From Chiloscyllium plagiosum (lineage: Eukaryota), in NCBI RefSeq assembly GCF_004010195.1, contig NC_057718.1, positions 67,234,588-67,298,587 on the forward strand: DNA of 64,000 nucleotides. Reading direction: 5' to 3'. Shown here piece by piece: positions 7,031-62,494 of this stretch (the first letter of the stretch is position 1; each line of letters starts with the position of its first letter). Position numbers and translations under genes: made by a program. The notes under the pieces are model-generated. The model had not been told where the DNA came from. It saw nothing but the letters and a program-made list of their open reading frames with translations, and ran no database searches.

Positions 7031-7141
7031 TCAGTGGTGCTGGAAGAGCACAGCAATTCAGGCAGCATCCGAGGACAGGCAAAATTCCAGCACCACTGAT
7101 CCAGAATCTGGTTTCCAGCATCTGCAGTCATTGTTTTTACT
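7031..7141. mobile_element. PLE-derived fold-back mini-element
   Basis: Inverted arms TCAGTGGTGCTGGAA / TTCCAGCACCACTGA; TSD ACAGAGCTGGG at 7020-7030 and 7142-7152. Confidence 0.85.
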
Positions 7142-8479
7142 ACAGAGCTGGGACCTATTCTCCAAACTGAAAAGGTACAGATACAATAACTGCAACCACC
7201 AGACTGGCTGACCGATTCGTGCCAAAACCCCTCCACTGATTTCAGAGGTTACTCTTGACTTACTGTACCGGGCCCCCTGACTGAACAATGTCGTTCTTGA
7301 TTTGAGTGTGAACTACTCCCTTCACACTTTGAGACATGGCCTTTTGCTTGCAGCATGGCATGTGTTTGCTGTGTGTATGGTTGGCCTGTGTGCAGGTGTG
7401 AGACTGACATGGCACCGTGCTATTCAACAAAGAGTCCACGTCCTTGACTGATGACACTGACCAGCAAGTCAAGCTGCCTGACTTTGCTTCTGCAGTAAAC
7501 TACAAAGCAATGCAAATGTACTGCAAGCCTTTAAAGTGTAGCTAAGTGGGCAAAGCTTAAGGGTTCATCCATAGAATACATTATGAATTATCAATGTAGT
7601 GTAGGATTGGATTCAGACCAGAAGAAAGTGGTGGACATTTTTACCTGAAAAGTTTTGAATGACAACTGACAGTTTTGAGACAGTTACAGAGTTTTTGACA
7701 CAAATCCACAAGCTGCTCTAGTGAGATTTGAACTCATAACTTTAGGTTATTGCAACATTTGTGAAATTTCAGCAGTTAACCTGCATAGCATTCTGACCAT
7801 GATACAAACTCCTGGCTCAATAGGCATTTCTTTGATAAAGACCTATTTGGATTGGGCCCTTTGAGGAAGCAACTGTGGAATGGACAAACTCCAAATGTGC
7901 TGTTATCACTTCCTTACAGAAATCACATCAAACATTATTTGATGACCTGCTTCTGTAAGCTTCACTTCAGAAACAACAAATGGAAAGACAGAAATCTAGA
8001 AATTTGTCTGTATTTTCAGCTGCCAATCCAGCAGTGACAAGAACCATTTGTCTCCACAATCAATAAATTGAATAGGCTGAGCACATCTATGGAGTTATGT
8101 GCTGTTTCTATTCAACAATATCCTCCATGGCTATATTTTGAAAATTTTCTATTGATTGCAGTCGATAAAGAGTGAACTTCAAACACTGGAATCAGTCTTT
8201 ATCTGACCACTGTACCTGGTGTTATTTATATCCACAGGCTCCAAAAGATAATTTGCCCTGGAGTAATACTACCTCTCCTTTGGGGCAGACAACCGATTCA
8301 CATGAAGATAATGCAAACTTGTTCCTCCTACAGCATTAGGAGCTGACAAGTGTGCTTCAGAACGTCATTCTTGTTTTACATAAAAATCATTGGAATCAAA
8401 GATATTTGAGCTTGATTCCAGGAAAGTAGCAGGAAGGTGGATGTGGAGTGAGGTAGGTGCATCTCTTTGATACTCCACA

Positions 8480-9258
8480 AACAGGACTTGTACACTTAAT
8501 GGACACTTAAAGGTCCGAGGGAGTGTTGCTGAACAAAGAGACCTTGGAGTGCAGGTTCATAATTTTTTGAAAGCACGTTTACAGGTAGATAGGATAGTGA
8601 AGAAGGCATTTGGTTTGCATCCCTTTATTGGTCAGAGTATTGAGTACAGGAGTTGAGAGGTCATGTTGCAGCTGTACGGAACATTGGTTAGGCCACTTTT
8701 GGAATATTGCATGCAATTCTGGTCTTCTTCCTATTCAGAAGGATGATGTGAAATTTGAAAGTGTTCAGAAAAGATTTACAAGGTTGTTGCCAGGGTTGGA
8801 GGATTTGAGCTAAAGGGAGAGGTTGAATAGGCTGGGGCTGTTTTCCTTGGAACGGCGGGGATTGAGGGGTGACCTTATAGAGGCTTATAAAAATCATGAG
8901 GGGCATGGATAGGATATATAGACAAAGTTTCTTCCCTGTGATGGGGGAGTCCAGAACTAGAGGGCAAGGGTTTAGGGTGAGACGGGAAAGATATAGAAGA
9001 GACCTAAGGGGCAATTTTTTCACACAAAGGGTGGTCGTGTATGGAATGAGCTCCCAGAGAAAGTGGTGGAGGCTAGTACAATTGCAACATTTAAAAGACC
9101 ATCTGGATGGGTATATGAATAGGAAGAGTTTGGAGGGATGTGGGCTGAGTGCTGGCAGGTGGGACTAGATTGGGTTGGGATATCTGGTCAGCATGGATAG
9201 GTTGAACTGAAGGGTCTGTTTCTGTGCTGTACATCTCTATGACTCTATAACTCTAATC
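8480..9258 (+). mobile_element. CR1 (HER1-like) LINE 3' fragment
   Basis: EQRDLGVQV...GNFFTQRVV...CTCTATGACTCTATAACTCTA tail. Confidence 0.95.
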
Positions 9259-10811
9259 TATGCCTGATCTTCAATGTTGATAACCTTGTGGACATCAGAA
9301 CCCTGTTCCCCTTTAAAATTCAATAAATACTTGAACTTAGAAAGACAATATATTGACATTTTATTCTTTAGTATGTGTTTTTACATTGATTATATGGACC
9401 TCTTGATTATCTGGAATATTTGATCAACCTGGTCCCATAGGTGCGGTTAATAAAAAGCTTGCTGTATTTCCCTCTTTTCCTTAAGTTTAATCAGTTTCAT
9501 CCTCACACGTTCTTGAGAGTTCTCCACTGTTCAACACTGCCAGTGCTACTATTCACCGTTTTCCCCTTGTTCTTTTAGCCTGCTACCACCACACACATTT
9601 CATAATAAACCCAAGCATTGCATCCAGGTCAAAGATCATCACAAAATCCCTCCCCAAAACTTGCATCGTACACATAGTAACAATTGCATGAATATCACTG
9701 CACATATGAAGGTAGTTTTTGATGTGTAAAATCCTGGTTATATCAGGTCAGTTTCACATTAATCAGAAAAGGTCTTTGATATTTGTAAAGAATATGAGGG
9801 GTCATTCAATGGCTTCAAATCTGCTAATATCTTTACAATTCGATTGTCTGAAGATGCACACACATTAAGTGCTCCGTTGTCTTTTTACCAACAAATCAAA
9901 AAATGTATATCAGTTTCTCTGTCTCATGAAATCCTGGAGGACAGAGCTTAGGCAATTTCTGAAAACCATCCATTGCAAACAGTTTTTGCTTTTAGATGTT
10001 AAGTTACATCTGTTCTTGCTGAAGGGCCAACTACAGGAGATTGTCTTGGGGAAGGTGTTGAATGGTCGCTAAAAGTAACCCATAGTTTTATTTTTGTGTA
10101 AATATTTGTGACATCGTGTCACAGGCCCCTTAAACATCCACAATTTAGTTGACTTTGACCTTAAAAATTGTGCATTAACCAAATTAATTTGTATAGAAAT
10201 GGCCACTGCTGGTTTCAGGTTAATGAAAGATTACCAAACTGAAATGAAAACATTTCATGTCTGCTAATTGATGTGCTGCATGGTACCAATATTTCCTGCT
10301 TTAACTTCATTCAAATGAATTAACTAGTTATTATTCATTGCTGTTTATGTGAATTTGTTATGTGCATCTAAGAGACGTAAATACCTACTTTACAGCAGTG
10401 ATTGACGAGTTTCCCTCTTGAAGTTTAAGGGCCATTGCAAATGAGGTTAAAGGTAATGTCCAGGGAAGTGCCAGAGTTTGACCTGCACACATTCTTTGAC
10501 ACTTACACAGCACCTTATGGGTTTAAGCACAGAATTAGTGATGATTTCACATGTCTCTGGAGGGAAAGGCTGTTCTGTGTATGAGCTTTTTTAAGGCAAT
10601 GCATAAACATTCCATGGAGATTTTCAATGATCAGTTCGCACATTCACTGTCCCCCACAACACAACTATCTGGAAAGTCAGTTGTCCAAGCTAAATTTTCC
10701 TATAGAGGATATTCAAGCATATCACGACATGGTTACAGTCTCTCTGCACTCCAAAGCAATGAAGGAAAGTGGGTGAAGTGTATTGTTTCTTTTTAGGTAA
10801 TTTCTGGGTCT

Positions 10812-13675: not shown

Positions 13676-13707
13676 GTGGGGTGGGCAGATAGGTGAGGCT
13701 ATATACA

Positions 13708-17007: not shown

Positions 17008-18770
17008 AGTCATAGATCCATCATGGATCGGTCCGATCCATCCATGCTGACCAGATATCCCAAACCAATCTAGTCCCACCTGCCAGCACCCGGACCATAT
17101 CCCTCCAAACCCTTCCTATTCATATACCCATCCAAATTGGTCAATACTCTGACCAATAAAGGAAAGCATACCAAACGCCTTCTTCACTATCCTATCTACC
17201 TGCGACTCCACTTTCAAGGAGTTATGAACCTGCACTCCAAGGTCTCTTTGTTCAGCAACACTCCCTAGGATCTTACCATTAAGTGTATAAGTCCTGCTAA
17301 GAAATGCTTTCCCAAAATGCAGCACCTCGCATTTATCTGAATTAAACTCCATCTGCCACTTCACAGCCCATTGGCCCATCTGGTCCAGATCCTGTTGTAA
17401 TCTGAGGTAACCCTCTTTGTTGTCCACTACACCTCCAATTTTGGTGTCATCTGCAAACTTATCTCTTATGCTCACATCCAAATCATTTATATAAGTGACG
17501 AAAAGTAGTGGACCCAGCACCGATCCTTTTGGTACTCCACTGGTCACAGGCCTCCAGTCTGAAAAACAACCCTCCACCACCACNNNNNNNNNNNNNNNNN
17601 NNNNNNNNNNNNNNNNNNNNNNNNNNNNNNNNNNNNNNNNNNNNNNNNNNNNNNNNNNNNNNNNNNNNNNNNNNNNNNNNNNNNNNNNNNNNNNNNNNNN
17701 NNNNNNNNNNNNNNNNNNNNNNNNNNNNNNNNNNNNNNNNNNNNNNNNNNNNNNNNNNNNNNNNNNNNNNNNNNNNNNNNNNNNNNNNNNNNNNNNNNNN
17801 NNNNNNNNNNNNNNNNNNNNNNNNNNNNNNNNNNNNNNNNNNNNNNNNNNNNNNNNNNNNNNNNNNNNNNNNNNNNNNNNNNNNNNNNNNNNNNNNNNNN
17901 NNNNNNNNNNNNNNNNNNNNNNNNNNNNNNNNNNNNNNNNNNNNNNNNNNNNNNNNNNNNNNNNNNNNNNNNNNNNNNNNNNNNNNNNNNNNNNNNNNNN
18001 NNNNNNNNNNNNNNNNNNNNNNNNNNNNNNNNNNNNNNNNNNNNNNNNNNNNNNNNNNNNNNNNNNNNNNNNNNNNNNNNNNNNNNNNNNNNNNNNNNNN
18101 NNNNNNNNNNNNNNNNNNNNNNNNNNNNNNNNNNNNNNNNNNNNNNNNNNNNNNNNNNNNNNNNNNNNNNNNNNNNNNNNNNNNNNNNNNNNNNNNNNNN
18201 NNNNNNNNNNNNNNNNNNNNNNNNNNNNNNNNNNNNNNNNNNNNNNNNNNNNNNNNNNNNNNNNNNNNNNNNNNNNNNNNNNNNNNNNNNNNNNNNNNNN
18301 NNNNNNNNNNNNNNNNNNNNNNNNNNNNNNNNNNNNNNNNNNNNNNNNNNNNNNNNNNNNNNNNNNNNNNNNNNNNNNNNNNNNNNNNNNNNNNNNNNNN
18401 NNNNNNNNNNNNNNNNNNNNNNNNNNNNNNNNNNNNNNNNNNNNNNNNNNNNNNNNNNNNNNNNNNNNNNNNNNNNNNNNNNNNNNNNNNNNNNNNNNNN
18501 NNNNNNNNNNNNNNNNNNNNNNNNNNNNNNNNNNNNNNNNNNNNNNGTGCTCCCCCACTGACACCTCAGTCACCTGCCCTGCCTTATTTCCCAAGAGTAG
18601 GTCAAGTTTTGCACCTTCTCTAGTAGGTACATCCACATTCTGAATCAGAAAATTGTGTTGTACGCACTTAACAAATTCCTCTCCATCTAAACACTAACAC
18701 TATGGCAGTCCCAGTCTATATTTGGAAAGTTAAAATCTCCTACCATAACCACCCTATTATTCTTACAGAT
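17008..18770 (-). mobile_element. CR1 (HER1-like) LINE spanning an assembly gap
   Basis: PTREGAKLDLLLGN before the gap; VTSGVPKGSVLGPLLF and KFADDTKIGG after it; 3' UTR tail with an internal deletion near 17136. Confidence 0.9.
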
Positions 18771-19104
18771 AGGAGTAATTTGCTCAGTTGATGGGATTGT
18801 TGTGTTGTGCCCCATACCTAGTTAAATGCAAATGGTACATTTGGTTTATTCCATTTAGATCATTTTGCAGTGCATTAATACAGTTGATGCAGTATGCTAG
18901 AGCATTTCAAGGAGCAGTTTAGAATCAACCTGTGAGTTGAGTCGCATATGGGATCAGGTAAGGGTAATAGATTTCCTGCCCTGCAGGACATTAATGAGAA
19001 AGCTTATCATTTTATCACAATCTGGTCATTTCATGTTCACCACGATTGAGATTAGCTTTCACTTCAAGATCCATTATTTGACCAAGTTTTTTTTAGCAAG
19101 TTTT

Positions 19105-19275
19105 GAGAGTCCGTGGGTTTGTAGTAGATGTCTGTGGTTAGTCAGTTGCTGGAAATGGAGATGGAGCAGTCCAGAAAGGGAAGGGAGGTGTCTGAGATGG
19201 TCCAGGTGAATTTGAGGTCGGGGTGAAAGGTGTTAATGAAGTTGATGAACTGCTCAACCTCCTTGTGGGAGCAAG
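19105..19275 (-). mobile_element. Penelope RT fragment
   Basis: CSHKEVEQFINFINTFHPDLKFTWTISDTSLPFLD. Confidence 0.9.
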
Positions 19276-19664
19276 TTTCTTTTCTCAGATGCTGTGAGAG
19301 GATTTGAACTTCTGACTGGATCATGTGTAACTGAACAAGCCAATGTGAATCTTAGGTGACATGGGTATTGATGACATGACTAATGATTCTGATACACAAT
19401 ATACAGACGTGTGCAGCACCCTTACATTGAAAGCAATGCTTCCAAACAGAATAGGATAAGGCAGACCATTGGTGTGCTTAAGCAATACTTCTGCTATTTG
19501 GGCTACACTGGAGGAACCCTGCAGAATGTGTGTTCAGATTTGTGTTGGTCATTCAATGCAGTACAATCTCACCATCATGAAGGGGTATTCAAGCATCTTT
19601 GTCCTCCTCTGAATAGTTGCTGCCATCTCCAGTTTGCTGTGACGAATCTGTGTTCAGATATTCA

Positions 19665-19850
19665 TAGGATCATAGATTCCCTACAATGTGGAAGATCATT
19701 CAACCCATCAAATCCACACTGCCCCTCTGAAGAGAGTCCACCCAGACCCAGACCCCTACCCTATCCTTGTAACTCTGCATTTCCCACCTAACCTGCATAT
19801 CCCTGAACACTATGGTCAATTTAGCAAGGCCAATCCACCCAACCTCACCC
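19665..19850 (-). mobile_element. HE1-type SINE 3' part
   Basis: Matches the 3' half of the SINEs at 5968 and 39803. Confidence 0.75.
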
Positions 19851-21208
19851 TGTCCCTTAGTGACTGACGAGGAGAAATTGAAGACTGGAGATCAGAGTCG
19901 AGAGAGTGGTGCTGGAAAAGCACAGCAGGTCAGGCAGCATCCGAGGAACAGGAGAATCAATATTTTGGAATGAAGCTTGTGGGCTGGGGGGCTGAGAGAT
20001 AAGTGGGAAGGTGGTGAAGCTAAGGAGAAGGTAGCTGAGAATACAATAGGTAGATGAAGGTGGGTGGGAAGGTGACAGGTCAGAGAGGAGAGTGGAATGG
20101 ATAGATGGGAAAGACAATGGACAGGTCCAGAGGACAATTGGGACTGGGGTAAGGTGGAGAGAGGGGAAATGAGGAAACTGGCAAAATCCACGTTAATCCC
20201 ATGTGGTTGCATAGTCCCAAGTCAGAAGATAAGGTGTTCTTCCTCCAGGCATCGGGTAGTTAGGGTTTGGTGATGGAGGAGACCCAGGACCTGCAAGTCC
20301 TTGGTGGAATGGGAGGGGGAGTTGGAGTGATCAGCCATGGGGCAGTGGGGTTGGTTGGTGCAGTTGTCCCAGAGATGTTCTCTGAAACAATCCGCAACAT
20401 GGAGTCCTGTCTCTCTGATGTAGAGGAGACCACATTGGGTGCAACGGATACAGTAAATGACATTAGTAGAGGTACAGGTAAATTTCTGTCAGATGTGGAA
20501 GGATCGTTTGGGACGTTGGACAGAAGTGACAGTGAGGTTAGGCACAGGTTTTGTACTTCCTGCAGTGGCTGGGGAAGGTGCAAAGAGTGGGGTGAGAGCT
20601 AGAGGGAGGTGTGGATCTGACAAGGGAGTCGCAGAGGGATTGGTCTCTCCAAAACATTGATGGGGTGGGGAGGGAAATATATCCCAAGTGATGGGGTCTG
20701 TTTGTAGGTGGCCAACATGGCGGAGGATGATGCGAGATATACAGAGGTTGGCGGGGTGAAAGGTGAGGACCAGGGTGGTTCTGTTCTTGTCGTGTTTGAA
20801 GGGTGGGGTTCAAGGGCGGAGGTGCGGTAAGTGAAGGAGATGCACTAGAGGGCATCATCAACCATGTGGGAGGGGAAATTGCGGTCTTTGAAGAAGGAGG
20901 TCATCTGGGATTTTCTATGGTGGAATTGATCATCGTGGGAACAAATGCAGCTGAGGCAGAGGAATTGGGAATAAGCGATGGCATATTTACAGGAGGCAGG
21001 GTGGGAGGAGGCGTAGTCCAGGTAGCTGTGGGAGTCCGTGGGTTTGTAGTAGATGTTTGTAGTTGGTTGCTGGAAATGGAGATGGAGGGGTCCAGGAATG
21101 GGAGGAAGGTGTCCGACATGGTCCAGGTGAATTTGAGGTTTGGGTGAAAGGTGTTAATGAAGTTGATGAACTCTTCAACCTCCTCATGGCTGCACAAGGT
21201 AGCGCCAA

Positions 21209-22168
21209 CCTTCGCATAAACCAAATCATCCGCCGCCACCTCCAAACGGACCCCACCACCAGGGATATATTTCCCTCCCCACCCCTTTCTGCCTTCCACA
21301 AAGACCGTTTCCTCCATGACAACCTAGTCAGGTCCACTCCCCCCTACAACCCACCCTCCCGTCCTGGCACCCTGCCCTGCCACCGCAGGAATTGCAAACC
21401 CTGCGTCCACACCTCCTCCCTCACCTCCATCCAAAACCCTAAAGGAGCCTTCCATATCCATCAAAGTTTTACCTGCACATCCACCAATATCATTTATTGT
21501 ATCCGTTGCTCCCAATGCGGTCTCCTCTACATTGGGGAGGCTGAATGCCTCCTAGCAGAACGTTTTAGGGAACATCTCTGGAACACCCGCACCAATCAAC
21601 CACACCGTCCTGTGGCCCAACATTTCAACTCCCCCTCCCACTCTGCCGAGGACATGGAGGTCCTGGGCCTCCTTCACTGCCGCTTCCTTACCACCCGACG
21701 CCTGGAGGAAGAACGCCTCATCTTCCGCCTCGGAACACTTCAACCCCAGGGCATCAATGTGGACTTCACCAGTTTCCTCATTTCCTCTTCCCCCACCTCA
21801 CCCCAGTTCCAAACTTCCAGCTCAGCACCGTCCCCATGACCTGTCCTACCTGCCTATCTTCTTTTCCACCTATCCACTCCACCCTCCTCTCTGACCTATC
21901 ACCTTCATCCCCACCCCCATCCACCCATTGTACTCTTTGCTACCTTCGCCCACCTTCCTCCCTGACCTATCACCTTCATCCCCACACCCATTCACCTATT
22001 GTACTCTATGCTACTTTCTCCCCAGCCCCACCCTCCTCTCATTTATCTCTGCACCCTTCAGGCACTCTGCCTGTATTCCTGATGAAGGGCTTTTGCCCGA
22101 AACGTCGGATTTTCCTGCTACTTGGATGCTGCCTGAACTGCTGTGCTTTTCCAGTACCACTCTACTCC
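21209..22168 (+). mobile_element. Younger 5'-truncated Penelope element with an open GIY-YIG endonuclease reading frame
   Basis: FTCTSTNIIYCIRCSQCGLLYIGE..LAERFREHL...EERLIFRLGTLQPQGIN; flanked by AGCGCCAA (21201-21208) and AGTGCCAA (22169-22176). Confidence 0.95.
22075..22110 (+). ncRNA. Minimal type-I hammerhead ribozyme motif in the Penelope 3' region
   Basis: attc-CTGATGA-a-GGGC-tttt-GCCC-GAAA-C-GTC-ggat: core boxes, stem II, palindromic ACGT helix III and a 4-bp helix I. Confidence 0.75.
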
Positions 22169-23479
22169 AGTGCCAATACAGTCATCGATATAGTGGAGGA
22201 AAAGGTGAGGGGTGGTGCTGGTGTAGTGGCGGACGATGGATTGTTCCAAGTACCCGACAAAGAAGAAGGCATAGCTGGGCCCATGCGGGTGCCCATGGCT
22301 TGTCTCTTTGGTTTGGAGGAAGTGGGAGGATTGGAAGGAGATGTTGGTAAGAGTCAGGACCTGTTCAGCCAGGTGGCTGAGGGTGTCAGTGGAAGGTTAC
22401 TGGTTGGGATGGCGTGAAAGGAAGAAATGGAGGGCTTAGAGGCCTTCGTCGTGGCGAATAGATATGTACAGGGACTGGATGTTCATGGTGAAGATAACGT
22501 GTTGGGGGCTGAGGAAACGAAAGTCTTGGAGGAGGTGAAGGGCATGGATATCCAGTCAGATGAAGACCCCAAGGTCCCAAAGTAATAACTCCAGACGCCT
22601 GACTCAAAAGGAATACACTGTTGGACACCAAAATGGAGTCATCACTCATGGCGTACATAGGGTAGTCCTAGTCCAGAATAGACGGTTCTGCAGGCCCATC
22701 TTTGTGTCTGCTTTCTTTCTTCCCTTCTGTTAATCACCACCTGTAAATCACCTGTGTTTCCAATTCTTATTTTAAAAAGAGCTCAGGTTTGGTAGTTTGC
22801 ATTATTATTTATGGTCTTCACAAGTAATTATTCAATTGACAACACAGTTGATTTACTGCTGATGGTTAATAGGAAAATAAAGCACCACAGTGATTTGGTG
22901 ATGGGAAAAAGACCGTTCCGTTGCATATGATAACACCTCCGGATATTAAAAGAGTAAAAATATATAAAGAACTCAGACGATGAGTTCCAGCTGGGCAGGC
23001 CATTGTCTGTTACCAAGGGAACTCATACTCAACAAGCTCCGTGCAGAGATTAATTAGTGATTCCCCATGGACAATGCATAATTGTTTTCTTCTTTTGTGC
23101 TCAATGGGCACAACGTAATGCTGAAGTGTGTGTGTGTGTTTGTGTGTGTGCCCCTGCCTGCGCCGGTGTGGGGTCAGTGTGTGGGTGGCTGACATTAATA
23201 GGGTACATTTAAATCAGGCAGAAGGGTGGCAGGTAGGTATTACCACTGCCTTTCCTCCTTCACCTTAATTAAGTTCATGGCACAGGCCTTAGACAGCATT
23301 CTCTCTCCTCCCCCGCCACATCCAAATGATCAAGACCCTTAAGGCAATTAATGCCCAATTGAGGACCTCATTTGAGCAGCAGGCAGGATACTCAGAATGT
23401 GTTGAGCATCGCAATAAAACCCTGGTATGCAAATGGTCTCAACTATCACTTCAGAAGCCTGACATGAAATCCAGTCTCT

Positions 23480-23615
23480 GGCTGCCTCTGAACTCTCTGC
23501 CTCTGGATTCCTGATAAAGGGCTTTTGCCCGAAATAAAATTTTTCTGATTTTTCCTGCTCCTCAGATGCTGCCTGACCTGCTGTGCTTTTCTAGCACCAC
23601 TCTAATCTTGACTCT
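23480..23615 (+). mobile_element. PLE 3' tail with a mutated hammerhead motif
   Basis: CCTGATAAAGGGCTTTTGCCCGAAA...GATGCTGCCTGACCTGCTGTGCTTTT. Confidence 0.85.
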
Positions 23616-23729
23616 GAACTCTCACCTGACTCCGGATGACACTCACGCTCTCCATTCCTGGCAAGGATGTTCCCAATTTGAATAACACCTACCCAAACAC
23701 TCCCCTGACATTTGCCCACTTCAATATAT

Positions 23730-23820
23730 CTGAAGAAGGGCTTATGCCCGAAACGTCGATTCTCCTGTTCCTTGGATGCTGCCTGACCTGCTGCGCTTTT
23801 CCAGCAACACATTTTCAGCT
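23730..23820 (+). mobile_element. PLE-derived mini-element with a hammerhead motif
   Basis: CTGAAGAAGGGCTTATGCCCGAAACGTCGA; TSD TCAATATATCTGAAG at 23721-23735 and 23820-23834. Confidence 0.9.
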
Positions 23821-23894
23821 CAATATATCTGAAGCCAATATGACTTTTCTCATCAAGTCCAATTTCTGGTCCTTAAGCAAGTTCCAGTAGAAAT

Positions 23895-24285
23895 ACTGAG
23901 AGTAATATCAGTGCATTAGTAATCCAGAGACTCAGTGTTTAGTTCTGGGGACATGAGTTCTCATCACATTTGAAGGAGTATAAGTTCAATCAATAAAATT
24001 CAGAAATTAATCCAGACTTGGTAATAGTGTTAAAAATGTTATCAATGAGTATTGTTGAAAACCCATCTTTTTCACTACTGCTCTTAAAGGAAGGACATCT
24101 GCCATCTGGACCTGGTCTAAATGTGACCCCAGGGCAATTTAGTTGACACTTCATGATACTCAGAATGTGTTGAGCATAGCAAGGCCCTAAACTGTCCTAA
24201 CAAGCCATTCAGCAGATGGACAATTAGTGATGAGAAAGAAATGCTGGCTGTGCCAATGACACTCATATCCTATGTTATTTTCTTT
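23895..24285 (+). mobile_element. tRNA-derived SINE (second family, sharing the L2/CR1-group LINE tail), degenerate
   Basis: TAGTAATCCAGAGAC..TCTGGGGACATGAGTTC..GGAAGGACATCTGCCATC; homologous to 50525-50868. Confidence 0.7.
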
Positions 24286-25842
24286 GTAAGAAACAGGACA
24301 TCATTAGAGAGTGCCCTTGGCCGCAGTCACGCTTCTCATTGCCTTTATCCTTGTAATACGTGGGCAGGGGTTTTGTCACTTAGAAAAGCATAACCAAAAG
24401 TTTGGAAACATTGGGGACCCAGCACATCCCAAGCCCTGGCATTTACTGTGCTGTACTGCCAAATACCCCAGGATTAAAGCAATGGAACGATGCTGAAAAA
24501 TTGATGCTAACATTTTTCATGATATTGGGTAAGCAGGGCCCCAAAGCACTGTTCCTTTCATCCAGCATTTTCTTTAAATAATGCCATGCTGTCTTTTACA
24601 GTGTAAACAGATGAAGCCTTAGAAACAGCTCTCTGCACCACACTGCAGCATCACCACTTGTCCAAAACATTGGAATTCTGTCCTTCTATCAGAATTATGT
24701 TTGGATCAGGTGTACCTTTATATTCGACATAAGCACAAAATATAAAGATGTAAACTTGATTCAGTTGGTCAATATAAATTGTGAGTGTGACATATTTTGA
24801 TCAGCCCTTTCTTCCCTCTTCGAGCAAAGTAATACAAAAACCAACTGTGCTTTATCAGTCACACTCTGTTCTAACACTGGGGATATTTATCGAGCTGCTG
24901 TAAAGTGACAGTCAACAAGTTTTGTCATCACATCACACTGTACCAGGGGATGAGAAGGTACAGTTATATCAGGAGACATGTTGTTTACTGTGTACAAGAT
25001 TTATTTTTGTCATCCCAGATACCCAAGGGGCAAGTAACAAACCTGATCTGCTCTAGTTACTGTATCTGTCATCTCACCAAGTCTGAAGGCTTCAAGCTTT
25101 CTGTTTTTGAAAAGTATGCTTAGTTTTGTTATTATTGCAGAGAACAATTAACATATAAAATTGATATAGCTTCTTTGGCTTTCAATCTTATTGTTAATTA
25201 TATTAGCCGACCTGATCTGTAGTTGTAGCCTGCTATTTGTGGTCTATTATTCATTATTAATGGGTTCATAATCTACAAAACATGGTTTTGAGTATTTTTT
25301 GAAATTCATTCACAAGTTGCGAGCATCGCTGGCAAGGTCCTCATGTGATGCTCATCCCTAATTGAACTTGAGAAGGTGGTGGTGAGTCACATTCTCGAGC
25401 CATCTACAGCCCATTGTGAAGTAAATACACCCACAGTGTGCTGTTAGGAAATGAGTTCCAGGACTTTAGTCCATGGTCAGTGAAGAAATGGTGTTGTGGT
25501 TTGAAGTCAGGATGGTGTTTGACTTGGAAGGCAACTTGTGGGTGGTGGTGTTCCTATGAATCAGTTGCTTTTGTCTCTCCAGATGGTAAAGATTGTAACT
25601 TTGTAAGGTGCTCTCAAATGAGCCTTAGCAAGTTTCTGCAGTGCATTTTGTACATGATATACACTGCTGCCACTGCCTGTCAGTGATCGTGGTGGATGAA
25701 GCTTCAATATTGATTTTCTTTATTTTAGTTGGAATAGCAATAGACAAATGGATAGTAATTCATCAGAATCCTTTCTTGTACCATGTAGATGTTGGACAGG
25801 CCTTGAACGAGTCAGAAAATGAGTTACGCATCACTGAATTCA

Positions 25843-25922
25843 TAGTCAAAAAGTGTGGCACTGGAAAAGCACAACAGGTCAGGCAGCATTCAAGGAGCTG
25901 GAGAATCAACATTTCGGGCATA
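25843..25922 (-). mobile_element. PLE-derived mini-element
   Basis: CTGGAAAAGCACAACAGGTCAGGCAGCAT...CATTTCGGGCATA. Confidence 0.8.
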
Positions 25923-27291
25923 TGCATCATCACATCGTGACCTGCCCTTGTAGCCACAGCATGTATATGGCTGGTCCAGTTCTAATTCTGATCAATTGTA
26001 AAATCTAGGATAATGATAGCGTGGAACTTAGCAATTGCAATACCATTGAATTTCAAGGAATGCTAGTTAGATTCTGTCACATTGGATATGGCCATTGTGT
26101 AGCACAAATGTTACTTAATAGAAATAGAATAGAACATTCCAGCGCAGTACATGTGCTTTGGCCCTCAATGTTGTGCTGACCTGTGGAACCAATCTGAAGC
26201 CTATCTATCCTGCAATACTCCATTTTCATCCTAATGTTTATCCAATGACCATTTAAATGCCCTTAAAGTTGCTGAGTCTACTACTGTTGCAGGCAGTGCA
26301 TTCCACGCCCCTACTACTCTCTGAATAAAGAAACTACCTCTGACATCTCTCCTATATTTATCACCCCTCAACTTAAAACAATGTCCCCTTGTGCTAGCTA
26401 TCACCATCCGAGGAAAAAAGCACTCAATCTAACCCTCAGATTATCTTATATGTCTCAATTAAGTCACCTCGCAACCTTCTTCTCTATAATGAAAACAGCT
26501 TCAAGTCCATTAGCCTTTCCTCATTAGATCTTCCCTCCATACAAGGCAGCATCCCAGTAAATCTCCTCTGAACCCTTTCCAAAGCTTCCACATCCTTCCT
26601 ATAATGTGATGACCAGAGCGGTACGCATTACTCCAAGTGCAGCAGCATCAGAGTTTTGTACAGCTGCAGCATGACCTCGTGGTTCCGAAACTCAATCCCT
26701 TTTCCAATAAATGTTAACACACCATATACCTTCGTAACAACCCTGTCAACCAGGGTAGCAACTGTCAACCAGGGTAGCAACTGTCAGGGATCTATGTACA
26801 TGGACACCAAGATCTTTCTACTCATCTACACTACCAAGAGTCTTACCATTAGCCTGGTACTCATTATTCCTGTTGCTCCTTCCAAAATGATGTGCCTCAA
26901 GCTTTTCCACATTAAACTCCATTTGCCACCTCTCAACCCAGCTCTGCAGCTAATCTATGTCCTTCTGTAACCTACAACATTCTTCAGCACTATACACAAA
27001 TCCACCGACCTTAGTGTCATCCACAAATTTACTAACCCATCCTTCGACACCCTCATTTAAGTCATTTATAAAAATGGCAAATAGCTCTGCCCCCAAAACA
27101 GATCCTTGCGGTATACCACTAGTATCTGAACTCCAGGATGAATATTTCCCATCAACTATGACCCTCTGTCTTCTTTCAGCTAGCCAATTGCTGATCCAAA
27201 CCGCTAAATCACCCTCAATCCCATGCTTCCATATTTTGTGCAATAGCCTACCATGGGGAAGTTTATCAAACACCTTACTGAAAGCCATATC

Positions 27292-29157: not shown

Positions 29158-29355
29158 GTGTTGCTGGAAAAGCACAGCAGGTCAGACAGCATCCAAGGAG
29201 CAGGAGAATCGATGTTTCGGGCATAAGCCCTTCTTCAGGCTTATGCCTGAAACATCGATTATCCTGCTCCTTTGATGCTGCCTGACCTGCTGCACTTTTC
29301 CAGCAACACATTTTTCAGCTCTGATCTCCAGCATCTGCAGTCCTCACTTTCTCCC
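29158..29355. mobile_element. PLE-derived fold-back mini-element with hammerhead motif
   Basis: Inverted arms of about 70 bp; TSD TTGGTCCTAATCTT at 29144-29157 and 29356-29369. Confidence 0.92.
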
Positions 29356-29873: not shown

Positions 29874-29966
29874 GGCCTGATGAAGGGCTTTTGCCCAAAA
29901 TGTCAATTTTCCTGCTCCTTGGATGCTGCCTGACATGCTTTGCTTTTCCAGTACCACTCTAATCTA
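29874..29966 (+). mobile_element. PLE-derived mini-element with hammerhead motif
   Basis: CCTGATGAAGGGCTTTTGCCC; TSD ATCACAT(G/A)ATTGAAG at 29859-29873 and 29967-29981. Confidence 0.9.
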
Positions 29967-31006: not shown

Positions 31007-31554
31007 TCACCGAGCTCCAGGCTGAATACTTTACATCAACCACCACCCTCTGTCTTCTGTGGTCTAGCCAATTCTGTATCCAGACAGACAGGTTTCTCTG
31101 TATCCCATGCCTCCTTTTGAGTGAGTCTATCTTGGGGACCCTTATGAAAGGTCCACTGCTATATCTTCATCAATGTGTTTTGTCACATCCTCAAGAATTC
31201 AATAAGGTTTATGAGGCAGGACCTGCCCCTAGAACTACCCCTCATGTTAACTATCTCTAATCAAACTCACCGAGCTCCAGGCTGAATATTTTACATCAAC
31301 CACCACCCTCTGTCTTCTGTGGTCCAGCCAATTCTGTATCCAGACAGACAGGTTTCTCTGTATTCCATGCCTCCTTTTGAGTGAGCCTATCTTGGGGCCC
31401 CTTATGAAAGGGCCTTGTTAAAATCCATGTACGCCATGTCAACTGCTCTATCTTCATCAATGTGTTTTGTCACATCCTCAAGAATTCAATAAGGTTTATG
31501 AGGCAGGACCTGCCCCTAGAACTACCCCTCATGTTAACTATCTCTAATCAAACT
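31007..31554. repeat. Tandem duplication of about 260-290 bp within the CR1
   Basis: TCACCGAGCTCCAGGCTGAATA... starts at 31007 and 31267; the first copy has an internal deletion of about 27 bp. Confidence 0.95.
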
Positions 31555-31561
31555 ATGATTT

Positions 31562-32023
31562 GAAGGAGCTGGTGTTGGACTGGGGTGGACAAAATTAAAA
31601 ATCTCACAACGGCAGGTTATAGTCCAACAGGTTTATTTGGAATGCAGATTCTTCATCAGGTGGTTGTGAAGCAGGATCATCAGACACAGAATTTATAGCA
31701 ATATGTCATGCAGCTGAAATATATTGAACAGAACTAGATTAAGTCTTTCATCTTTTAGAATGGGTTTGTTAGTTTCAGTTTTTAATGTGTATTCTGGGAT
31801 TTACATATTAAAGAACTGAAACTAACAAAACAATTCTAAAAGATGAAAGACATAACAATCTAGGTTTGTTCAATGTATTATTGTATCACTGTAATGTTTT
31901 GCTATAAATTCTGTGTCTTATGATCCTGCTTCACAACCACCTGCTGAGGAAGCAGTACTTCGAAAGCCAATGCCTCCAATTAAACCTGTTGGACTATAAC
32001 CTGGTGTTGTGTGATTTTTAACT
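31562..32023. mobile_element. Long fold-back PLE-derived element (second hammerhead family)
   Basis: Inverted arms of about 200 bp centred near 31795; TSD TAATCAAACTAT(GA/GG)TTT at 31545-31561 and 32024-32040. Confidence 0.88.
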
Positions 32024-37200: not shown

Positions 37201-37345
37201 AGACAGTGAGGTCTGGAGATCAGAGTTGAGAGTGTATTGTTGGAAAAGCACAGCAGTTCAGGCAGCATCCGAGGAGCAGGAAAATTGACATTTCCGGCCA
37301 TTTCCTGATGAAGGGCTCCAGCCTGAAACGTCGATTTTCCTGCTC
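37201..37345. mobile_element. PLE-derived fold-back mini-element with hammerhead motif
   Basis: CTGATGAAGGGCTCCAGCCTGAAACGTCGA at 37305; degenerate TSD CAGATCACATATGGAAGG / CAGACCACATGGAAGG. Confidence 0.85.
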
Positions 37346-37438
37346 CAGACCACATGGAAGGCACTGCGTGAACTACTACAATTTGATGTTTATCTGTAAT
37401 TTGTAACCTGACTGTAATGTTTATCCTTTTAACTATGA

Positions 37439-37540
37439 GCACAAACAGAAATTGTTGAAAAAGTTCAGCAGGTCTGGAATCATCTGTGAAGAGAAATCAG
37501 AGTTAATGTGTTGGGTCCGGTAACCCTTCCTCAGGACTCC
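37439..37540 (-). mobile_element. PLE-derived mini-element (third family, decayed hammerhead)
   Basis: Minus strand GAGTCCTGAGGAAGGGTTACCGGACCC..ATTAACTC; homologous to 56672-56881. Confidence 0.75.
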
Positions 37541-39494: not shown

Positions 39495-39740
39495 AGATCA
39501 TCAGCTGCCATTTCTGCCACTCTAACAAGTTGACACCCCATATTCCTCTCCCCTCTCATGAACACCTTTCATCAGGAGCATTCCCTCCAGGACACCCTGG
39601 ACCACTGTTCTTTCACTCCCAATACAGTCCCACGGTACCATCCCCTGCAACCGCTGAAGGTGTAACCTGCCCATTTATCTCCTCTCTCCACAGTACCCAA
39701 GGTGAAGCAGCACTTTACCTGCACTTCTCACTATCTAGTC
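39495..39740 (+). mobile_element. Decayed Penelope fragment
   Basis: ATCATCAGCTGCCATTTCTGCCAC...CCCTGCAACCGCTGAAGGTGTAACCTGCCC, homologous to 21225-21500. Confidence 0.65.
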
Positions 39741-39741
39741 T

Positions 39742-48044: not shown

Positions 48045-49040
48045 TAACATAACATAAGAACTAGGTGCAGGAGTAGACCATCTGGCCCTTCGAGCCTGCT
48101 CCACCATTCAATCATGGCTATCTTTTTGTGGCCTCAGCTCCACTTACCTGCCCTCTCACTTTAACCCTTAATTGCTTCACCGCTCAAAAAAATTATCTAT
48201 CTTAACTTTAAAAACATTTACCAAGGAAGCCTCAAACATTTCACTAATGTTGACTTCTCCACCTCATGATGCTGCCTGGCTTGCTGTGTTCTTCTAGCCT
48301 CCTGCCTGGCTGTTTTGGATTTCAGCATCTGCAGTTTTTTTTGTCTCAACCACTTCATTGGGCTGTGAATTCCATTGATTTACAACTCTTTAGGTGAACA
48401 AGTTCCATCTCAATTCAGTCCTAAATCTTCTTCCCTGATTTTGAAGCTATGCTCTCTTGTCCTAGTTTTGCCAGCCTGTAGAAACACCCTCTCTACTTTT
48501 ATCTTATCTATTCCCTTCATAATTTTATATGTTTCCATAAAATCCCCCCTCATTCTTCTAAATTCCAATGAATATAATCCCAGTCTCCTCAGTCTCTCCT
48601 CATAAGCCAACCCCTTCAACTCCGGAATCAAACTAGTGAATCTCTTCTGCACCCCTTCTAATGCCAGTATATCCTTTCTCAAGTAAGGAGACCAAAACCG
48701 CATGCAGTACACCAGGTGTGGTCTCACCAGCATCCTATACAGTTGCAACGTAACTTCTCTACTTTAAACTCAATCCTTTTATCAATGAAGGACAAAATTC
48801 CATTTACCTTCTTAATTACCTCTTGCACCTGCAGACTACCTTCTGTGATTCATGTACAAGGATACCCAAGTCTCTCTGCACAGCAGTGTGCTGAAGTTTC
48901 TTACCATTAAAGTAATTGTCCTTTTTACTGTTATTCCTATTGAAATGGATGAGTTCACATTTATTAACATTGTTCTCCATCTGCCCATTCACTTAAACTA
49001 TCTATGTCCATTTGCAAAGTTTCACAGTCTTCTGCACACT
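48045..49040 (-). mobile_element. CR1 3' fragment containing a PLE mini-element at about 48248-48347
   Basis: LVRPHLVYCMRFWSP and FRRMRGD; tail TTCTTATGTT. Confidence 0.9.
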
Positions 49041-49051: not shown

Positions 49052-49300
49052 CTTTGTGTAAGAGGTAGGGTGGGAAGAGGTGTAATCCAGGTAGCTGTGG
49101 GAGTCGGTGGGTTTGTAGAAAATGTCAGTGTCAAGTCGGTCGTCACTGATGGAGATGGAGAGGTCCAGGAAGGGGAGGGAGGTGTCAGAGATGGACCAGG
49201 TAAATTTAAGGTCAGGGTGGAATGTGTTGGTGAAGTTGATGAATTGCTGAACCTCCTCGCGGGAGCACGAGGTGGCACCAATGCAGTCATCAATGCAGTC
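49052..49300 (-). mobile_element. Penelope RT fragment
   Basis: IDDCIGATSCSREEVQQFINFTNTFHPDLKFTWSISD...KPTDSHSYLDY. Confidence 0.9.
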
Positions 49301-49730
49301 AGAACCTTTTGCCCAGAGTTGAAATGTCTAAAACTAGGGGGGTCATGTGTTTAAGGTGAGAGGGGGAAAGTTCAAAGGAGATGTGAGGGGCAAAGGTTTA
49401 CACAGAGAGTGGTAAGAGTCTGGTACACACTGCCAGGAGTGGTGGTGGAGACAGATACAATAGGGACATTTATTGCACTTTTAGATAAGCACATGAATAT
49501 GCAAGGTATGGAGGGATATGGTCCAAGAGTCAAAAGAGTGTGGCGCTGGAAAAGCAAAACAGGTCAGGCAGCATCCAATGAGCAGGAGAATCGATGTTTC
49601 AGGCAAAAGCCCTTCATTAGAATATGGACCAAGGGCAGGCAGAAAGGATTAGTTTAATGTGGCGTCATGTTTGGTACAACATCGTGGGCTGAAGGGCCAC
49701 CTCCTGTGCTGTACTGTTCTATGTTCTATG
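49300..49730 (+). mobile_element. CR1 3' fragment with a minus-strand PLE mini-element at 49528-49621
   Basis: RVVRVWYTLP; the mini-element has TSD ATATGG(T/A)CCAAG at 49516-49527 and 49622-49633. Confidence 0.88.
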
Positions 49731-50868: not shown

Positions 50869-51073
50869 TAATGATCGAGGGTACTGGCAAGACCATACTT
50901 GGAGCATTATGCTCAATCTTGGCCATCTTACTGAGGGAGGATGTTAATGCATTGGAGGAAGTTCAGAGAATGCTTACCAGCCTGATACCTGGAAGGGGTG
51001 GGTTGTCTAATGAGGAAAGGTTACTCAGACTGGCCTTGTATCTGCTCGGGTTTGGAAGTGTAAGAGTCAAAGT

Positions 51074-51180
51074 GAAACGTCGATTTTGCCTGTCCTCGGA
51101 TTCTGCCTGAATTGCTGTGCTCTTCCAGCACCACTGATCCAGAATCTTGTTTCCAGCATCTGCAGTCATTGTTTTTACCT
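51074..51180 (+). mobile_element. PLE-derived mini-element starting at the hammerhead GAAAC
   Basis: GAAACGTCGATTTTGCCTGTCCTCGG...CTGCAGTCATTGTTTTTACCT; same subfamily as 7031-7141. Confidence 0.85.
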
Positions 51181-56671: not shown

Positions 56672-56881
56672 CACAAATAGAAATTGCTGGAAAAGCTCAG
56701 TAGGTCTGGCAGCACCTGTGGAGAGAACCAAAATTAACGTTTCGGGTTGAGTTCTGAGTAAGGGACACTCAACCCGAAACGTTAACCTGATTCTCCCACA
56801 AATGCTGCCCGACTGCTGAGCTTTTCCAGCAAATTTTATTTGTGTCTCTGATTTACAGCATCTACAGTTATTTTGGTTTTT
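56672..56881. mobile_element. Fold-back PLE-derived element (third hammerhead family)
   Basis: Inverted arms CACAAATAGAAATTGCTGGAAAAGCTCAG / CTGAGCTTTTCCAGCAAATTTTATTTGTG; TSD ATTG(C/G)TGTCT(G/A)CCT at 56658-56671 and 56882-56895. Confidence 0.88.
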
Positions 56882-57687: not shown

Positions 57688-59453
57688 AGGGACATGAGAA
57701 GTTATTGGCAGATAGAATCAAGGAAAATCCTAAAGCTTTGTATAGGTATATCAGGAATAAAAGAATGACTAAAGTAAGATTAGGGCCAATCAAGGGTGGT
57801 AGTGGAGTCTGAAGAGATAGGAGAAGTGCTAAATGAATATTTTTTGTCAATATTCACACTAGAAAATGACAATGTTGTTGAGGAGAATACTGAAATAAAG
57901 CTACTACACTGGACAGGATTGAGGTTCACAAGGAGGAGATGTTAGCAATTCTGTAAAGTGTGAAAATAGGTAAATCCCCTGGGCTGGATGGGATTTATCC
58001 CAGAATTCTCTGGGAAGCCAGGGAAGAGATTGCAGAGCCTTTGGCTTTGATCTTTATGTTGTCATTGCCTACAGGAATAGTGCCAGAAGACTGGAGAACA
58101 GCAAATGTTGTCCCCTTGTTCAAGAAGGGGAGCAGAGCCAACTCTGATAATTGTAGACCAGTGAGCCTTACTTCAGTTGTGGGTAAAGTGTTGGGAAAGG
58201 TGAAAAGAGGTAAGATTTATAATCATCTAGAAAATAATAAGTTGATTAGGGATAGTCAATGTGGTTTTGTGAAGGGTAGGTGGTGCCTCACAATCTTTAT
58301 TGAGTTCTTTGAGAAGGTGACTAAACAGGTGGATGAGGTTAAAGTGGTTGATGTGACTATGGATTTCAGTAAAACATGGTCGGCTATTGCACAAAATATA
58401 GAGGTATAGGATTGAGGGTGAGTTAGTGGTTTGGATGAAAAATTGGTTAGCTAAAAGAAGGCAGAGGGTGGTGGTTGATGGGAAATGTTCATCCTGGAAT
58501 TCAATTACTAATGGTGCACTGCAAGGATCTGCTTTGGGGCCACCGCTGTATTTCATTTTTATAAATGACCTGGATGAGGGCGTAGGAGGATAGGTTAGTA
58601 AATTTGCAGATGACACTAAGGTCGGTGGAGTTATAGATAGTGCGGAAGAATGTTGTAGGTTACAGAGGGACATAATAAGCTGCAGAGCTGGGCTGAGTGG
58701 TGGCAAATAATGTGGAAAAGTGTGAGGTGATTCACTTTGGAAGGAGAAATAGGAATAAAGAGTACTGGGCTAATGGTAAGATTCATGGTAGCGTAGATGA
58801 GCAGAGAGATCTGTGTCCATGTACATAGATCCCTGGAAGTTGCCACCCAGGTCAGTAGGGTTGTTAAGAAGGCAAACGGTGTGTTAGCTTTTGTTGGGCG
58901 AGGGATTGATTTTCAGAGCCATTAGGTCATGCTACATCTGCACTTGGAGTATTGCATACAGTTATAGTCACTATAGGAAGGATGTGGAAGCTTTGGAAAG
59001 GGTTCAGAGAAGATTTACTAGGATGTTGCCTGGTATGGAGGGAAGATCTTATGAGGAAAGGCTGAGGGACTTGAGGCTGTTTTTGCCAGAGAGAAGATTG
59101 ACAGGTGACTTAATTGAGACATATCAGATAATCAGAGGATTAGATAGGGTGGATAGTGAGAGCCTTTTTCCTCAGATGGTGATGGTTAGCATGAGGGGAC
59201 ATAGCTTTAAATTGAGGGGTGATAGAAATAAGACAGATACAGAGGCAGTTTTTTTACTCAGTGAGTAGTAGGGACATGGAATGCCCTGCCCGCAACAGTA
59301 GTAGATTCGCCAACTTTAAGGGCATTTAAATGGTCATTGGATAAACATATGGATGAAAATGGAATAGTGTAGGATATATAGGCTTCAGGTTGGTTCCACA
59401 GGTCGGCACAACATCAAGGACTAAAGGGCCTGTACTGCGCTGCAATGTTCTAT
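57688..59453 (+). mobile_element. CR1 LINE, 5'-truncated (same subfamily as 26116-29566)
   Basis: KSPGLDGIYPRILWE, KFADDTK and RVQRRFTRMLPG; tail TGTTCTATG. Confidence 0.93.
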
Positions 59454-60138: not shown

Positions 60139-60157
60139 TGGCGACAAGAGTGGGATT
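60139..60157 (+). promoter_or_regulatory. Primer-binding site, probably tRNA-Ser(GCT)
   Basis: TGGCGACAAGAGTGGGATT versus TGGCGACGAGGGTGGGATT, the complement of the tRNA-Ser-GCT 3' end as recalled; 1 nt after the LTR. Confidence 0.75.
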
Positions 60158-62084: not shown

Positions 62085-62209
62085 GGTGAAAGTGAGCAGA
62101 TGCTGGAGATTAGAGTCAAGATTAGAGTGGTGCTTGAAATACACAGCAGGTCAGGCAGCATCCGAGGAGCAGGAAAATCAATGTTTCGGGCAGAAGCCCT
62201 TCATCAGGA
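62085..62209 (-). mobile_element. PLE-derived mini-element with hammerhead motif, in the Gypsy integrase
   Basis: Minus strand CCTGATGAAGGGCTTCTGCCCGAAAC; perfect TSD AAGGAAACAGCCTA at 62071-62084 and 62210-62223. Confidence 0.92.
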
Positions 62210-62275
62210 AAGGAAACAGCCTACAGCTTCACTAGATACCAAACTGTCCCAGTTTCTATTCATTATAGGACCACC

Positions 62276-62494
62276 GTTGAAAATGTGTTGCTGGAAAAGC
62301 ACAGCAGGTCAGGCAGCATCCAAGGAGCAGGAGAATCGACGTTTCGGGCATGAGCCCTTCTTTAGGTTCCTGAAGAAGGGCTCATGCCCGAAACATTGAT
62401 TCTCCTGCTCCTTGGATGCTGCCTGACCTGCTGCGCTTTTCCAGCAACACATTTTCAGCTCTGATCTCCAGCATCTGCAGTCCTTGCTTTCTCC
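62276..62494. mobile_element. PLE-derived fold-back element with two opposed hammerhead motifs
   Basis: Inverted arms of about 90 bp meeting at 62366-62369; perfect TSD CATTATAGGACCACC at 62261-62275 and 62495-62509. Confidence 0.93.

What the first reader, a model, noticed from the sequence alone, without database searches (positions are those of the whole stretch)
7031..62494. Dispersed system of hammerhead-bearing, TSD-flanked, often fold-back mini-retroelements derived from Penelope tails
Seen: more than a dozen insertions of about 80-460 bp (7031, 23480, 23730, 25843, 29158, 29874, 31562, 37201, 37439, 48248, 49528, 51074, 56672, 62085, 62276) in three sequence families. They have no ORF, tRNA head or poly(A) tail. 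Most carry all or part of CTGANGA-stem-GAAA, most have 11-17 bp TSDs, and six are hairpins. The main family matches the 3' end of the Penelope copies at 19868 and 22079. Established: PLEs carry minimal hammerhead ribozymes and make inverted terminal duplications. Inference: this is a retrozyme- or SINE-like population mobilised by the PLE RT/GIY-YIG protein, and at this density it may be a large source of long dsRNA hairpins in this genome.
Basis: partly seen in the sequence, partly recalled or inferred. Interest (0 to 1): 0.72.

Follow-up and report, generated by a model that had tools for sequence, protein, structure and literature searches.

The report
Shark Penelope stubs stopping at ribozyme
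These 15 short insertions are real, dead-end pieces of a known jumping-gene class (Penelope-like) in a shark-like genome, not a separate self-copying RNA family; most begin right at the front edge of the element's tiny ribozyme motif, which likely marks where the element's RNA starts and would help explain how this poorly understood class copies itself.

Summary
Observation largely confirmed. All 15 insertions exist (83-462 bp); 12 have 11-17 bp TSDs; six are head-to-head inversions, four with long stems. The main family is wholly collinear with the ends of two long Penelope-like (RT + GIY-YIG) copies. Only 5 of 15 keep a full hammerhead core, and fold-backs are predicted to bury it. Retrozyme/SINE reading not supported: no tandem units, no own head, no RNA ends at the cut site, and short copies share subfamilies with long copies. 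Inverted copy, one-sided tail, TSD and solo minimal hammerheads are published Penelope features. Yet lengths are not continuous: 3' ends fall at two points (16 of 17 arms), and 9 of 11 arms reaching the hammerhead core stop within about 6 nt upstream of it (one of the nine within 13). Best reading: abortive insertions by the Penelope protein, primed at its two internal start sites, often from both nicked strands, many likely running off the RNA's 5' end (inferred; no start-site data). Related fold-back junctions occur in RNA reads; an A-to-G skew is weak. Other agents of this scan noted the same on other shark DNA.

The parts
7031..7141 (.). Family A3 inversion: minus arm (+29 to pre-tail end) joined to plus arm (+69 to full tail); 15-bp stem; TSD 7020-7030 / 7142-7152 (11 bp, exact); no hammerhead core
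19864..22627 (-). Long decayed Penelope-like copy PLE2 (RT, GIY-YIG, 3' UTR, A1-type end with tail; hammerhead core deleted), interrupted in its YIDD motif by PLE1
   Evidence: tblastn with RT/GIY-YIG homologue P0006, translations
21209..22168 (+). 5'-truncated Penelope-like copy PLE1 (GIY-YIG domain, 3' UTR, intact minimal hammerhead, pre-tail end), nested in PLE2, degenerate 8-bp TSD
   Evidence: Pfam GIY-YIG E=0.0022, below curated cut-off; homologues
22075..22111 (+). Minimal type I hammerhead of PLE1: helix I 4 bp, core, bulged A, helix II 4 bp, palindromic helix III remnant, GUC site
   Evidence: consensus in PMC4209133 suppl. file 2
23498..23608 (+). A1 solo stub, starts at -4 (preceded by an extra G and an 8-nt repeat of the target; -13 if read as upstream homology), pre-tail end, core mutated; TSD 15 bp
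23730..23819 (+). A2 solo stub, starts at 0 to +6 (microhomology with target), pre-tail end, core intact but lacks own helix I 5' strand; TSD 15 bp exact
25843..25925 (-). A solo stub, starts at +10, pre-tail end, no TSD
29158..29355 (.). A2 fold-back: minus arm -1 to pre-tail, plus arm +10 to full tail; TSD 14 bp exact; empty-site homologue at 57689-57882
29874..29966 (+). A1 solo stub, starts at -1 after two extra G, pre-tail end, core mutated; TSD 15 bp
31562..32023 (.). Family B fold-back, arms about 210-230 bp reaching about 130-145 nt upstream of the core, tail on minus arm only, both cores damaged; TSD 17 bp
37201..37346 (.). A1 inversion: minus arm +16 to tail, plus arm -5 to +41 with intact core; degenerate 15-17 bp TSD
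37439..37540 (-). Family C solo stub, homology starts about -4, pre-tail end, core mutated, no TSD found
48244..48344 (+). Divergent C/A-like solo stub with tail, no hammerhead core; degenerate 13-bp TSD
49528..49621 (-). A solo stub, starts at -2 to -4, pre-tail end, core mutated; TSD 12 bp
51073..51178 (+). A3 solo stub, starts at +19, full tail, no TSD; 95% identical to arms of 7031
56672..56881 (.). Family C fold-back: minus arm +13 to pre-tail, plus arm about -4 to full tail; degenerate 14-bp TSD
62085..62209 (-). A1 solo stub, starts at -2/-3, full tail; TSD 14 bp exact
62276..62494 (.). A2 fold-back: minus arm -1 to pre-tail, plus arm -3 to full tail, about 90-bp stem; TSD 15 bp exact

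Best explanation
These are dead-end insertions of the pLTR end of endonuclease-bearing Penelope-like elements, each likely written by the element's RT/GIY-YIG protein from the element's own RNA, and many likely stop where that RNA begins, just in front of the hammerhead. Steps: (1) the protein nicks both target strands 11-17 bp apart (TSDs shown; two-strand nicking shown in vitro for the lizard element PAc, inferred here). (2) RT starts at one of two adjacent internal sites, giving the two 3' end classes, with and without the 30-45 nt tail (end classes shown; cause inferred from PAc). (3) When both nicks prime, two cDNAs are copied over the same stretch of RNA and join head to head by microhomology, giving a fold-back with the tail on one arm (structure shown; in 3 of 6 each arm holds sequence the other lacks, so one arm is not a copy of the other; dual priming inferred). 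(4) Because the start sites lie about 85-130 nt downstream of the hammerhead, priming at the 5' copy of the repeat runs off the RNA end at about -1 to -6 and yields an 85-130 nt stub; priming at the 3' copy gives long copies such as PLE1 and PLE2 (the stop is shown, its cause is inferred). The hammerhead is a passenger in the stubs, decays, and is predicted to be buried in fold-backs.
For: Arms align over their whole length with PLE1/PLE2 ends, with no foreign head. 3' ends of 17 family A arms: 9 pre-tail, 7 with tail, 1 at +41; in other genomic copies flanks also begin at 23819-23820 (265 contigs, agreement 0.37) or run on into the tail (327 RNA reads, agreement 0.87). Tail on exactly one arm in 6 of 6 inversions, as published (PMC8557442, PMC3846280 passages) and matching two RT start sites and two-strand extension in PAc (PMC11167929, parts 1-2 of 4). 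5' ends: 9 of 11 arms that reach the core end at 0 to -6 (23498 could be -13), none between -14 and -800; hazard 0.21 per nt against 0.005 downstream; P = 2e-5 on the most conservative count. Direct-repeat joints in DNA contigs re-enter at -3/-4 in 5 of the 12 shown (10 not shown), one with an extra G. RNA read depth is flat over the ORF and 3' UTR (27-155) and jumps to 861 in the bin starting at 22075. An initiator-like YYANWYY sits at -6 to 0 in A1 and A2. No pile-up of RNA ends at the cut site; helix II pairing probability falls to 0.0 in all 3 fold-backs tested.
Against: No transcription start was measured; the only raw RNA run that mapped is poly(A) single-cell data and showed no pile-up of 5' ends anywhere. 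The initiator-like motif is common (1.1-1.9 per 100 nt) and absent from PLE1 itself, and the same bases form helix I. The depth step is confounded by subfamilies with other upstream sequence, and a share of A2 copies continue upstream (agreement 0.52 in RNA, 0.39 in contigs), so the stop is not absolute. In D. virilis Penelope the start lies well upstream of the hammerhead (75-bp intron 46 bp after the start, PMC2377424 passages). Family B arms do not stop at the core. Six of 17 arms end downstream (+10 to +69). 5' positions were read by eye with microhomology ranges.
Confidence: 0.62

Rival explanations
1. Same dead-end Penelope stubs, but primed at the 3' repeat and terminated at the hammerhead by structure (the finished cDNA folds on itself and lets go) or trimmed there by the element's endonuclease at the ATT just before the core.
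For: 13 of 15 short family A arms end between +19 and -6, in or beside the stem-loop. The PLE1 hammerhead folds as one hairpin from about 0 to +28. PAc endonuclease prefers ATT (PMC11167929). Self-priming was proposed for inverted junctions (PMC3846280 passages).
Against: A template hairpin should stall RT at its 3' foot (+28), where only 1 of 17 arms ends; simple snap-back cannot make 7031, 29158 or 37201, where each arm has unique sequence; TSD ends show no ATT preference in 12 sites (read by eye).
Confidence: 0.25
2. One reading: a SINE-like non-autonomous population, in which short or hairpin copies are transcribed and re-mobilised as masters.
For: Near-unit lengths; A2 (3 insertions, 90-96% identical) and A3 (2 insertions, 95%) are homogeneous and A2 has no long copy in the window; fold-back seams recur at 23730/23737-8 in 14 contigs and 16 RNA reads.
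Against: No own head or promoter sequence; A2 has a shared upstream continuation; A1 and A3 match long copies; the four family A inversions in the window have four different seams; recurrent seams can arise from microhomology; PAc needs RNA beyond the tail for priming (first 172 nt of the ORF against start sites at 111-118, PMC11167929), which stubs would lack.
Confidence: 0.09
3. Non-LTR retrozyme: hammerhead-processed monomers and circles reinserted by the PLE protein.
For: Minimal type I hammerhead; retrozymes are reported in one chondrichthyan and traced to pLTRs (bioRxiv 10.64898/2026.07.22.740005, parts 1-3 of 5).
Against: 0 of 15 are head-to-tail tandems; no recurrent tail-to-head joint among those shown; ends do not lie at the cut site; units of 85-130 nt; helix I is 2 bp plus mismatch in A1/A2 copies.
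Confidence: 0.03

Closest known systems
EN+ Penelope-like insertion unit: pLTR, adjacent inverted 5'-truncated copy, one-sided 30-40 bp tail, TSD, solo pLTRs (Arkhipova 2013 PMC3846280; Craig 2021 PMC8557442; passages read)
   Same: Head-to-head inversion, tail on one arm, TSDs, microhomology junctions, solo copies
   Different: Here the whole insertion is 83-462 bp with no ORF, TSDs are 11-17 bp (8-10 bp in the rotifer), and 5' ends pile up at the hammerhead
Minimal hammerheads of metazoan PLEs (Cervera and de la Pena 2014, PMC4209133; parts 1-2 of 4 and supplement 2 part 2 read)
   Same: Same core with bulged base after A9 and palindromic helix III remnant; thousands of solo motifs and opposite-strand pairs 100-700 bp apart, read there as truncated PLEs
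   Different: No shark data in the supplement searched (file 1 could not be searched); boundaries and TSDs not analysed there; helix I weaker in A1/A2
PAc, Poseidon element of Anolis (Frangieh 2024, PMC11167929; parts 1-2 of 4 read)
   Same: Two internal RT start sites about 110-150 nt after the hammerhead bracket the tail; both strands nicked and extended; no RNA ends at the hammerhead cut site
   Different: In PAc the ORF starts in the hammerhead core, in family A that frame is closed; a fixed 5' stop is not described in the text read (Fig. S2 is an image and could bear on this)
Non-LTR retrozymes (Cervera and de la Pena 2020 PMC7229834 passages; Li et al. 2026 bioRxiv)
   Same: pLTR-related, type I hammerhead, no ORF, dispersed monomers
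   Different: Defined by head-to-tail tandems with a hammerhead in each unit and by circular RNA; none here
Palindromic Harbinger repeats of frog and Penelope of lizard as ADAR substrates (PMC5625713 passages)
   Same: Self-folding repeats as dsRNA source; Penelope is heavily edited in lizard
   Different: Editing of the shark hairpins is only hinted at here

Membership tests
EN+ Penelope-like element (insertion products) | Parent with RT followed by C-terminal GIY-YIG | tested here: met
   P0006 (RT + GIY-YIG) aligns over residues 403-899 to PLE2/PLE1; Pfam GIY-YIG E=0.0022, below cut-off. Shown for family A only
EN+ Penelope-like element (insertion products) | Minimal hammerhead in the pLTR | tested here: met
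   against consensus
EN+ Penelope-like element (insertion products) | Inverted 5'-truncated copy and one-sided 30-40 bp tail | tested here: met
   6 of 6 inversions
EN+ Penelope-like element (insertion products) | Coding parent for families B and C | tested here: inconclusive
   C shares the core with A (78% over 68 nt); B has the architecture but no linked ORF in the window
Poseidon clade | RT phylogeny | not tested
   No tree built; clade name is a recalled lead
Non-LTR retrozyme | Head-to-tail tandem of two or more units, each with a hammerhead | tested here: not met
   0 of 15; no recurrent tail-to-head joint among 12 shown of 22
Non-LTR retrozyme | RNA ends or unit boundaries at the cleavage site | tested here: not met
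   1 of 17 arms starts near it; no end pile-up in RNA (poly(A) library, weak test)
Non-LTR retrozyme | Self-cleavage and circular RNA | not testable with these tools
   needs bench work or total-RNA data
SINE | tRNA/5S/7SL-derived head or other sequence not in the partner element | tested here: not met
SINE | Subfamilies amplified from short masters, independent of long copies | tested here: inconclusive
   A1 and A3 match long copies; A2 has an upstream continuation in reads; no whole genome held

The most novel reading that the evidence does not exclude
The stubs are strong-stop-like cDNAs: Penelope RT primes inside the 5' repeat of a capped RNA that starts 3-4 nt before the hammerhead and runs off its end, so the pLTR works like a retroviral U3-R, full-length copies need a jump to the 3' repeat, and paired run-offs from both nicked strands seed the shark genome with very many ADAR-edited hairpins.
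Probability: 0.33. Interest if true: 0.65.

Novelty: new member of a known kind. Interest (0 to 1): 0.33.

Why it matters
The layout is published, so it is not a new class of element. What may be new is the sharp 5' stop: if it marks the RNA start, shark genomes hold a very large natural record of Penelope reverse-transcription intermediates, and the open question of how pLTRs, tails and head-to-head inversions arise becomes testable with one 5' RACE and the existing PAc assay. Four long hairpins in 63 kb also make these elements candidate dsRNA substrates, as shown for Penelope in lizard.

Tried and rejected
No whole genome is held, so no genome-wide census or tree. Rfam gave no hammerhead, only 3 chance miRNA hits on hairpins. 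A metagenome scan for the core motif found 0 loci. No RNA holder listed for 19800-24400; not evidence either way. Run X22 laid 0 reads (no test). Summed contig depth was not used as copy number. Target-site consensus: none seen in 12 TSDs. Snap-back DNA synthesis rejected as the general source of hairpins (3 of 6 have arm-unique sequence on both sides). Hammerhead cleavage rejected as the source of 5' ends. A spliced template was considered; there is no AG at -4 in the A2 upstream letters. A-to-I editing: 4 of 5 A>G rows are skewed to sense-strand reads (p<=1e-6) against 1 of 20 other rows, but antisense reads show no T>C skew and one expressed locus with linked variants could explain it; kept as a lead only. 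Literature: ten searches found no paper describing these shark stubs, a 5' stop at the hammerhead, or 'strong-stop' with pLTR; the library lacks most subscription journals, Repbase and Dfam. PAc supplementary figures are images and bioRxiv supplements are closed; both may bear on novelty.
Full report
Setting. The window is repeat-rich animal DNA; the best protein homologues of its GIY-YIG frame come from carpet sharks (84% to a Chiloscyllium protein, 60-63% to Rhincodon and Stegostoma). No whole genome is held. Positions such as +19 or -4 count from the C of the hammerhead CTGA motif.

Observation. All 15 insertions are there. TSDs are clear in 9 of 15, degenerate in 3 and absent in 3, 11-17 bp; 7 of 148 random controls reached the clear score. 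Uninterrupted homologues confirm the empty site for 29158 and 31562. Six are head-to-head inversions; four fold into long stems, while 7031 and 37201 have short ones. A complete core survives in 5 of 15 insertions. There is no tRNA head, no tandem array of the unit and no Rfam hammerhead match, although the motif fits the published minimal PLE hammerhead consensus.

The parent. The two Penelope copies are one long minus-strand copy (22627 to 19864) interrupted in its YIDD motif by a second, plus-strand, 5'-truncated copy (21209-22168). An RT plus GIY-YIG homologue aligns along both. Every family A arm is collinear with the ends of these copies and holds nothing foreign. A1 stubs match PLE2, A3 stubs resemble PLE1, and A2, with no long copy in the window, has a shared upstream continuation in reads: DNA contigs and RNA reads agree on the same 16 letters before the core. 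Family C shares the core with A; family B shares only the layout.

3' ends. Of 17 family A arms, 9 end before the tail (about +82 to +97), 7 carry the tail and 1 ends at +41. Other genomic copies show the same two classes. All 6 inversions have the tail on one arm only. This is the published PLE signature (PMC8557442 and PMC3846280, passages) and fits the lizard element PAc, whose RT starts at two adjacent internal sites and which nicks and extends both strands (PMC11167929, parts 1-2 of 4). In 7031, 29158 and 37201 each arm holds sequence the other lacks, so neither is a DNA copy of the other; two copying events from RNA are needed. The arms of 62276 share a variant seen in 7.7% of DNA depth and those of 29158 one seen in 9.4% (a CpG site), which fits one template per hairpin but is weak.

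5' ends. Six arms end downstream of the core (+10, +10, +16, +19, +29, +69), nine end at 0 to -6 (one of them possibly -13), none between -14 and -800, and two run into the ORF. The hazard is 0.21 per nt in that zone against 0.005 downstream; the most conservative binomial gives P = 2e-5 (positions read by eye). In DNA contigs, 5 of the 12 direct-repeat joints shown re-enter at -3/-4, one with an extra G, and 3 of 5 listed fold-back joints lie within 8 nt of the core start (partly forced by where the reference begins). RNA depth on PLE1 is 27-155 over ORF and 3' UTR, 139 in the last bin before the hammerhead, then 861-1845; part of this step comes from subfamilies with other upstream sequence. 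Loose-end agreement of 0.33-0.52 says that many copies end within a few bases while a share continue; contigs are biased towards unique flanks.

Mechanism. I read the stubs as abortive products of the PLE protein. The two start sites lie 85-130 nt behind the hammerhead, and an RNA from a full unit has that stretch at both ends. Priming at the 5' copy must run off the RNA's 5' end; if the RNA starts just before the hammerhead this gives exactly the observed stub, and doing so from both nicked strands gives the fold-back. Support for a start there is indirect: an initiator-like match at -6 to 0 in A1 and A2, and extra G residues at 23498, 29874 and one joint. Against it: the motif is common (1.1-1.9 per 100 nt), PLE1 lacks it, D. 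virilis starts further upstream (PMC2377424 passages), family B does not stop there, and no RNA 5' pile-up was seen in a library ill-suited to show one. The main rival is release or trimming of the cDNA at the hammerhead hairpin.

Retrozyme and SINE. Retrozymes are head-to-tail tandems with a hammerhead in each unit (PMC7229834 passages; bioRxiv 10.64898/2026.07.22.740005 parts 1-3 of 5). None of 15 is tandem; tandem joints in contigs are scattered and of single-locus depth; 1 of 17 arms starts near the cut site; no RNA ends pile up there, as in PAc. The essential G12 is lost in 10% of DNA depth, like neighbouring CpG sites, and helix II pairing drops from 0.25-1.0 to 0.0 inside the 3 fold-backs tested. 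Solo minimal hammerheads and opposite-strand pairs were already read as truncated PLEs (PMC4209133 parts 1-2 of 4). Re-mobilisation of short masters cannot be excluded without the genome: seams at 23730/23737-8 recur in 14 contigs.

dsRNA. Fold-back junctions appear in 22 reads among 1,541 laid from one RNA run, so some related hairpins are transcribed; these loci are not shown to be. Four of 5 A>G rows are skewed to sense reads against 1 of 20 other rows, but antisense reads show no matching skew and one locus could explain it. Penelope is heavily edited in lizard (PMC5625713 passages).

Novelty. Ten paper searches found no description of these shark stubs or of the 5' stop; Repbase, Dfam, image supplements and most subscription papers were out of reach. 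My run-off idea was noted before I saw that other agents of this scan had reached the same readings on other shark DNA (198 findings for the words searched); those notes are not evidence. Verdict: real, a known kind, with one testable mechanistic clue; interest 0.33.

Noticed in passing
21209-22168 within 19864-22627: One Penelope-like copy is nested in the YIDD motif of another, in opposite orientation, with a degenerate 8-bp TSD.
   Followed up: yes
5566-5642, 19085-19276, 49061-49294, 39540-39743: Internal Penelope RT or GIY-YIG fragments with no pLTR end, set inside other repeats; suggests priming or capture away from the usual start sites.
   Followed up: partly
23384-23414 and 24152-24182: A 31-bp direct repeat (94%) 770 bp apart; the second copy looks like a short templated insertion into another repeat.
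   Followed up: no
31007-31554: A 288-bp tandem duplication (88%) of a LINE fragment ending at the left TSD of the 31562 fold-back.
   Followed up: no
36671-37083: GC-rich minisatellite, 56-bp unit about 5 copies, next to the 37201 insertion.
   Followed up: no
21879-22022: 71-bp tandem duplication in the 3' UTR of PLE1; similar skips of about 70 bp occur in other copies in contigs.
   Followed up: partly
23744, 23752, 23753, 23786 (reads laid): A>G differences enriched in sense-strand RNA reads and rare in DNA contigs; possible A-to-I editing of related copies.
   Followed up: partly
3764-3816 and 17584-18546: Runs of N in the window.
   Followed up: no
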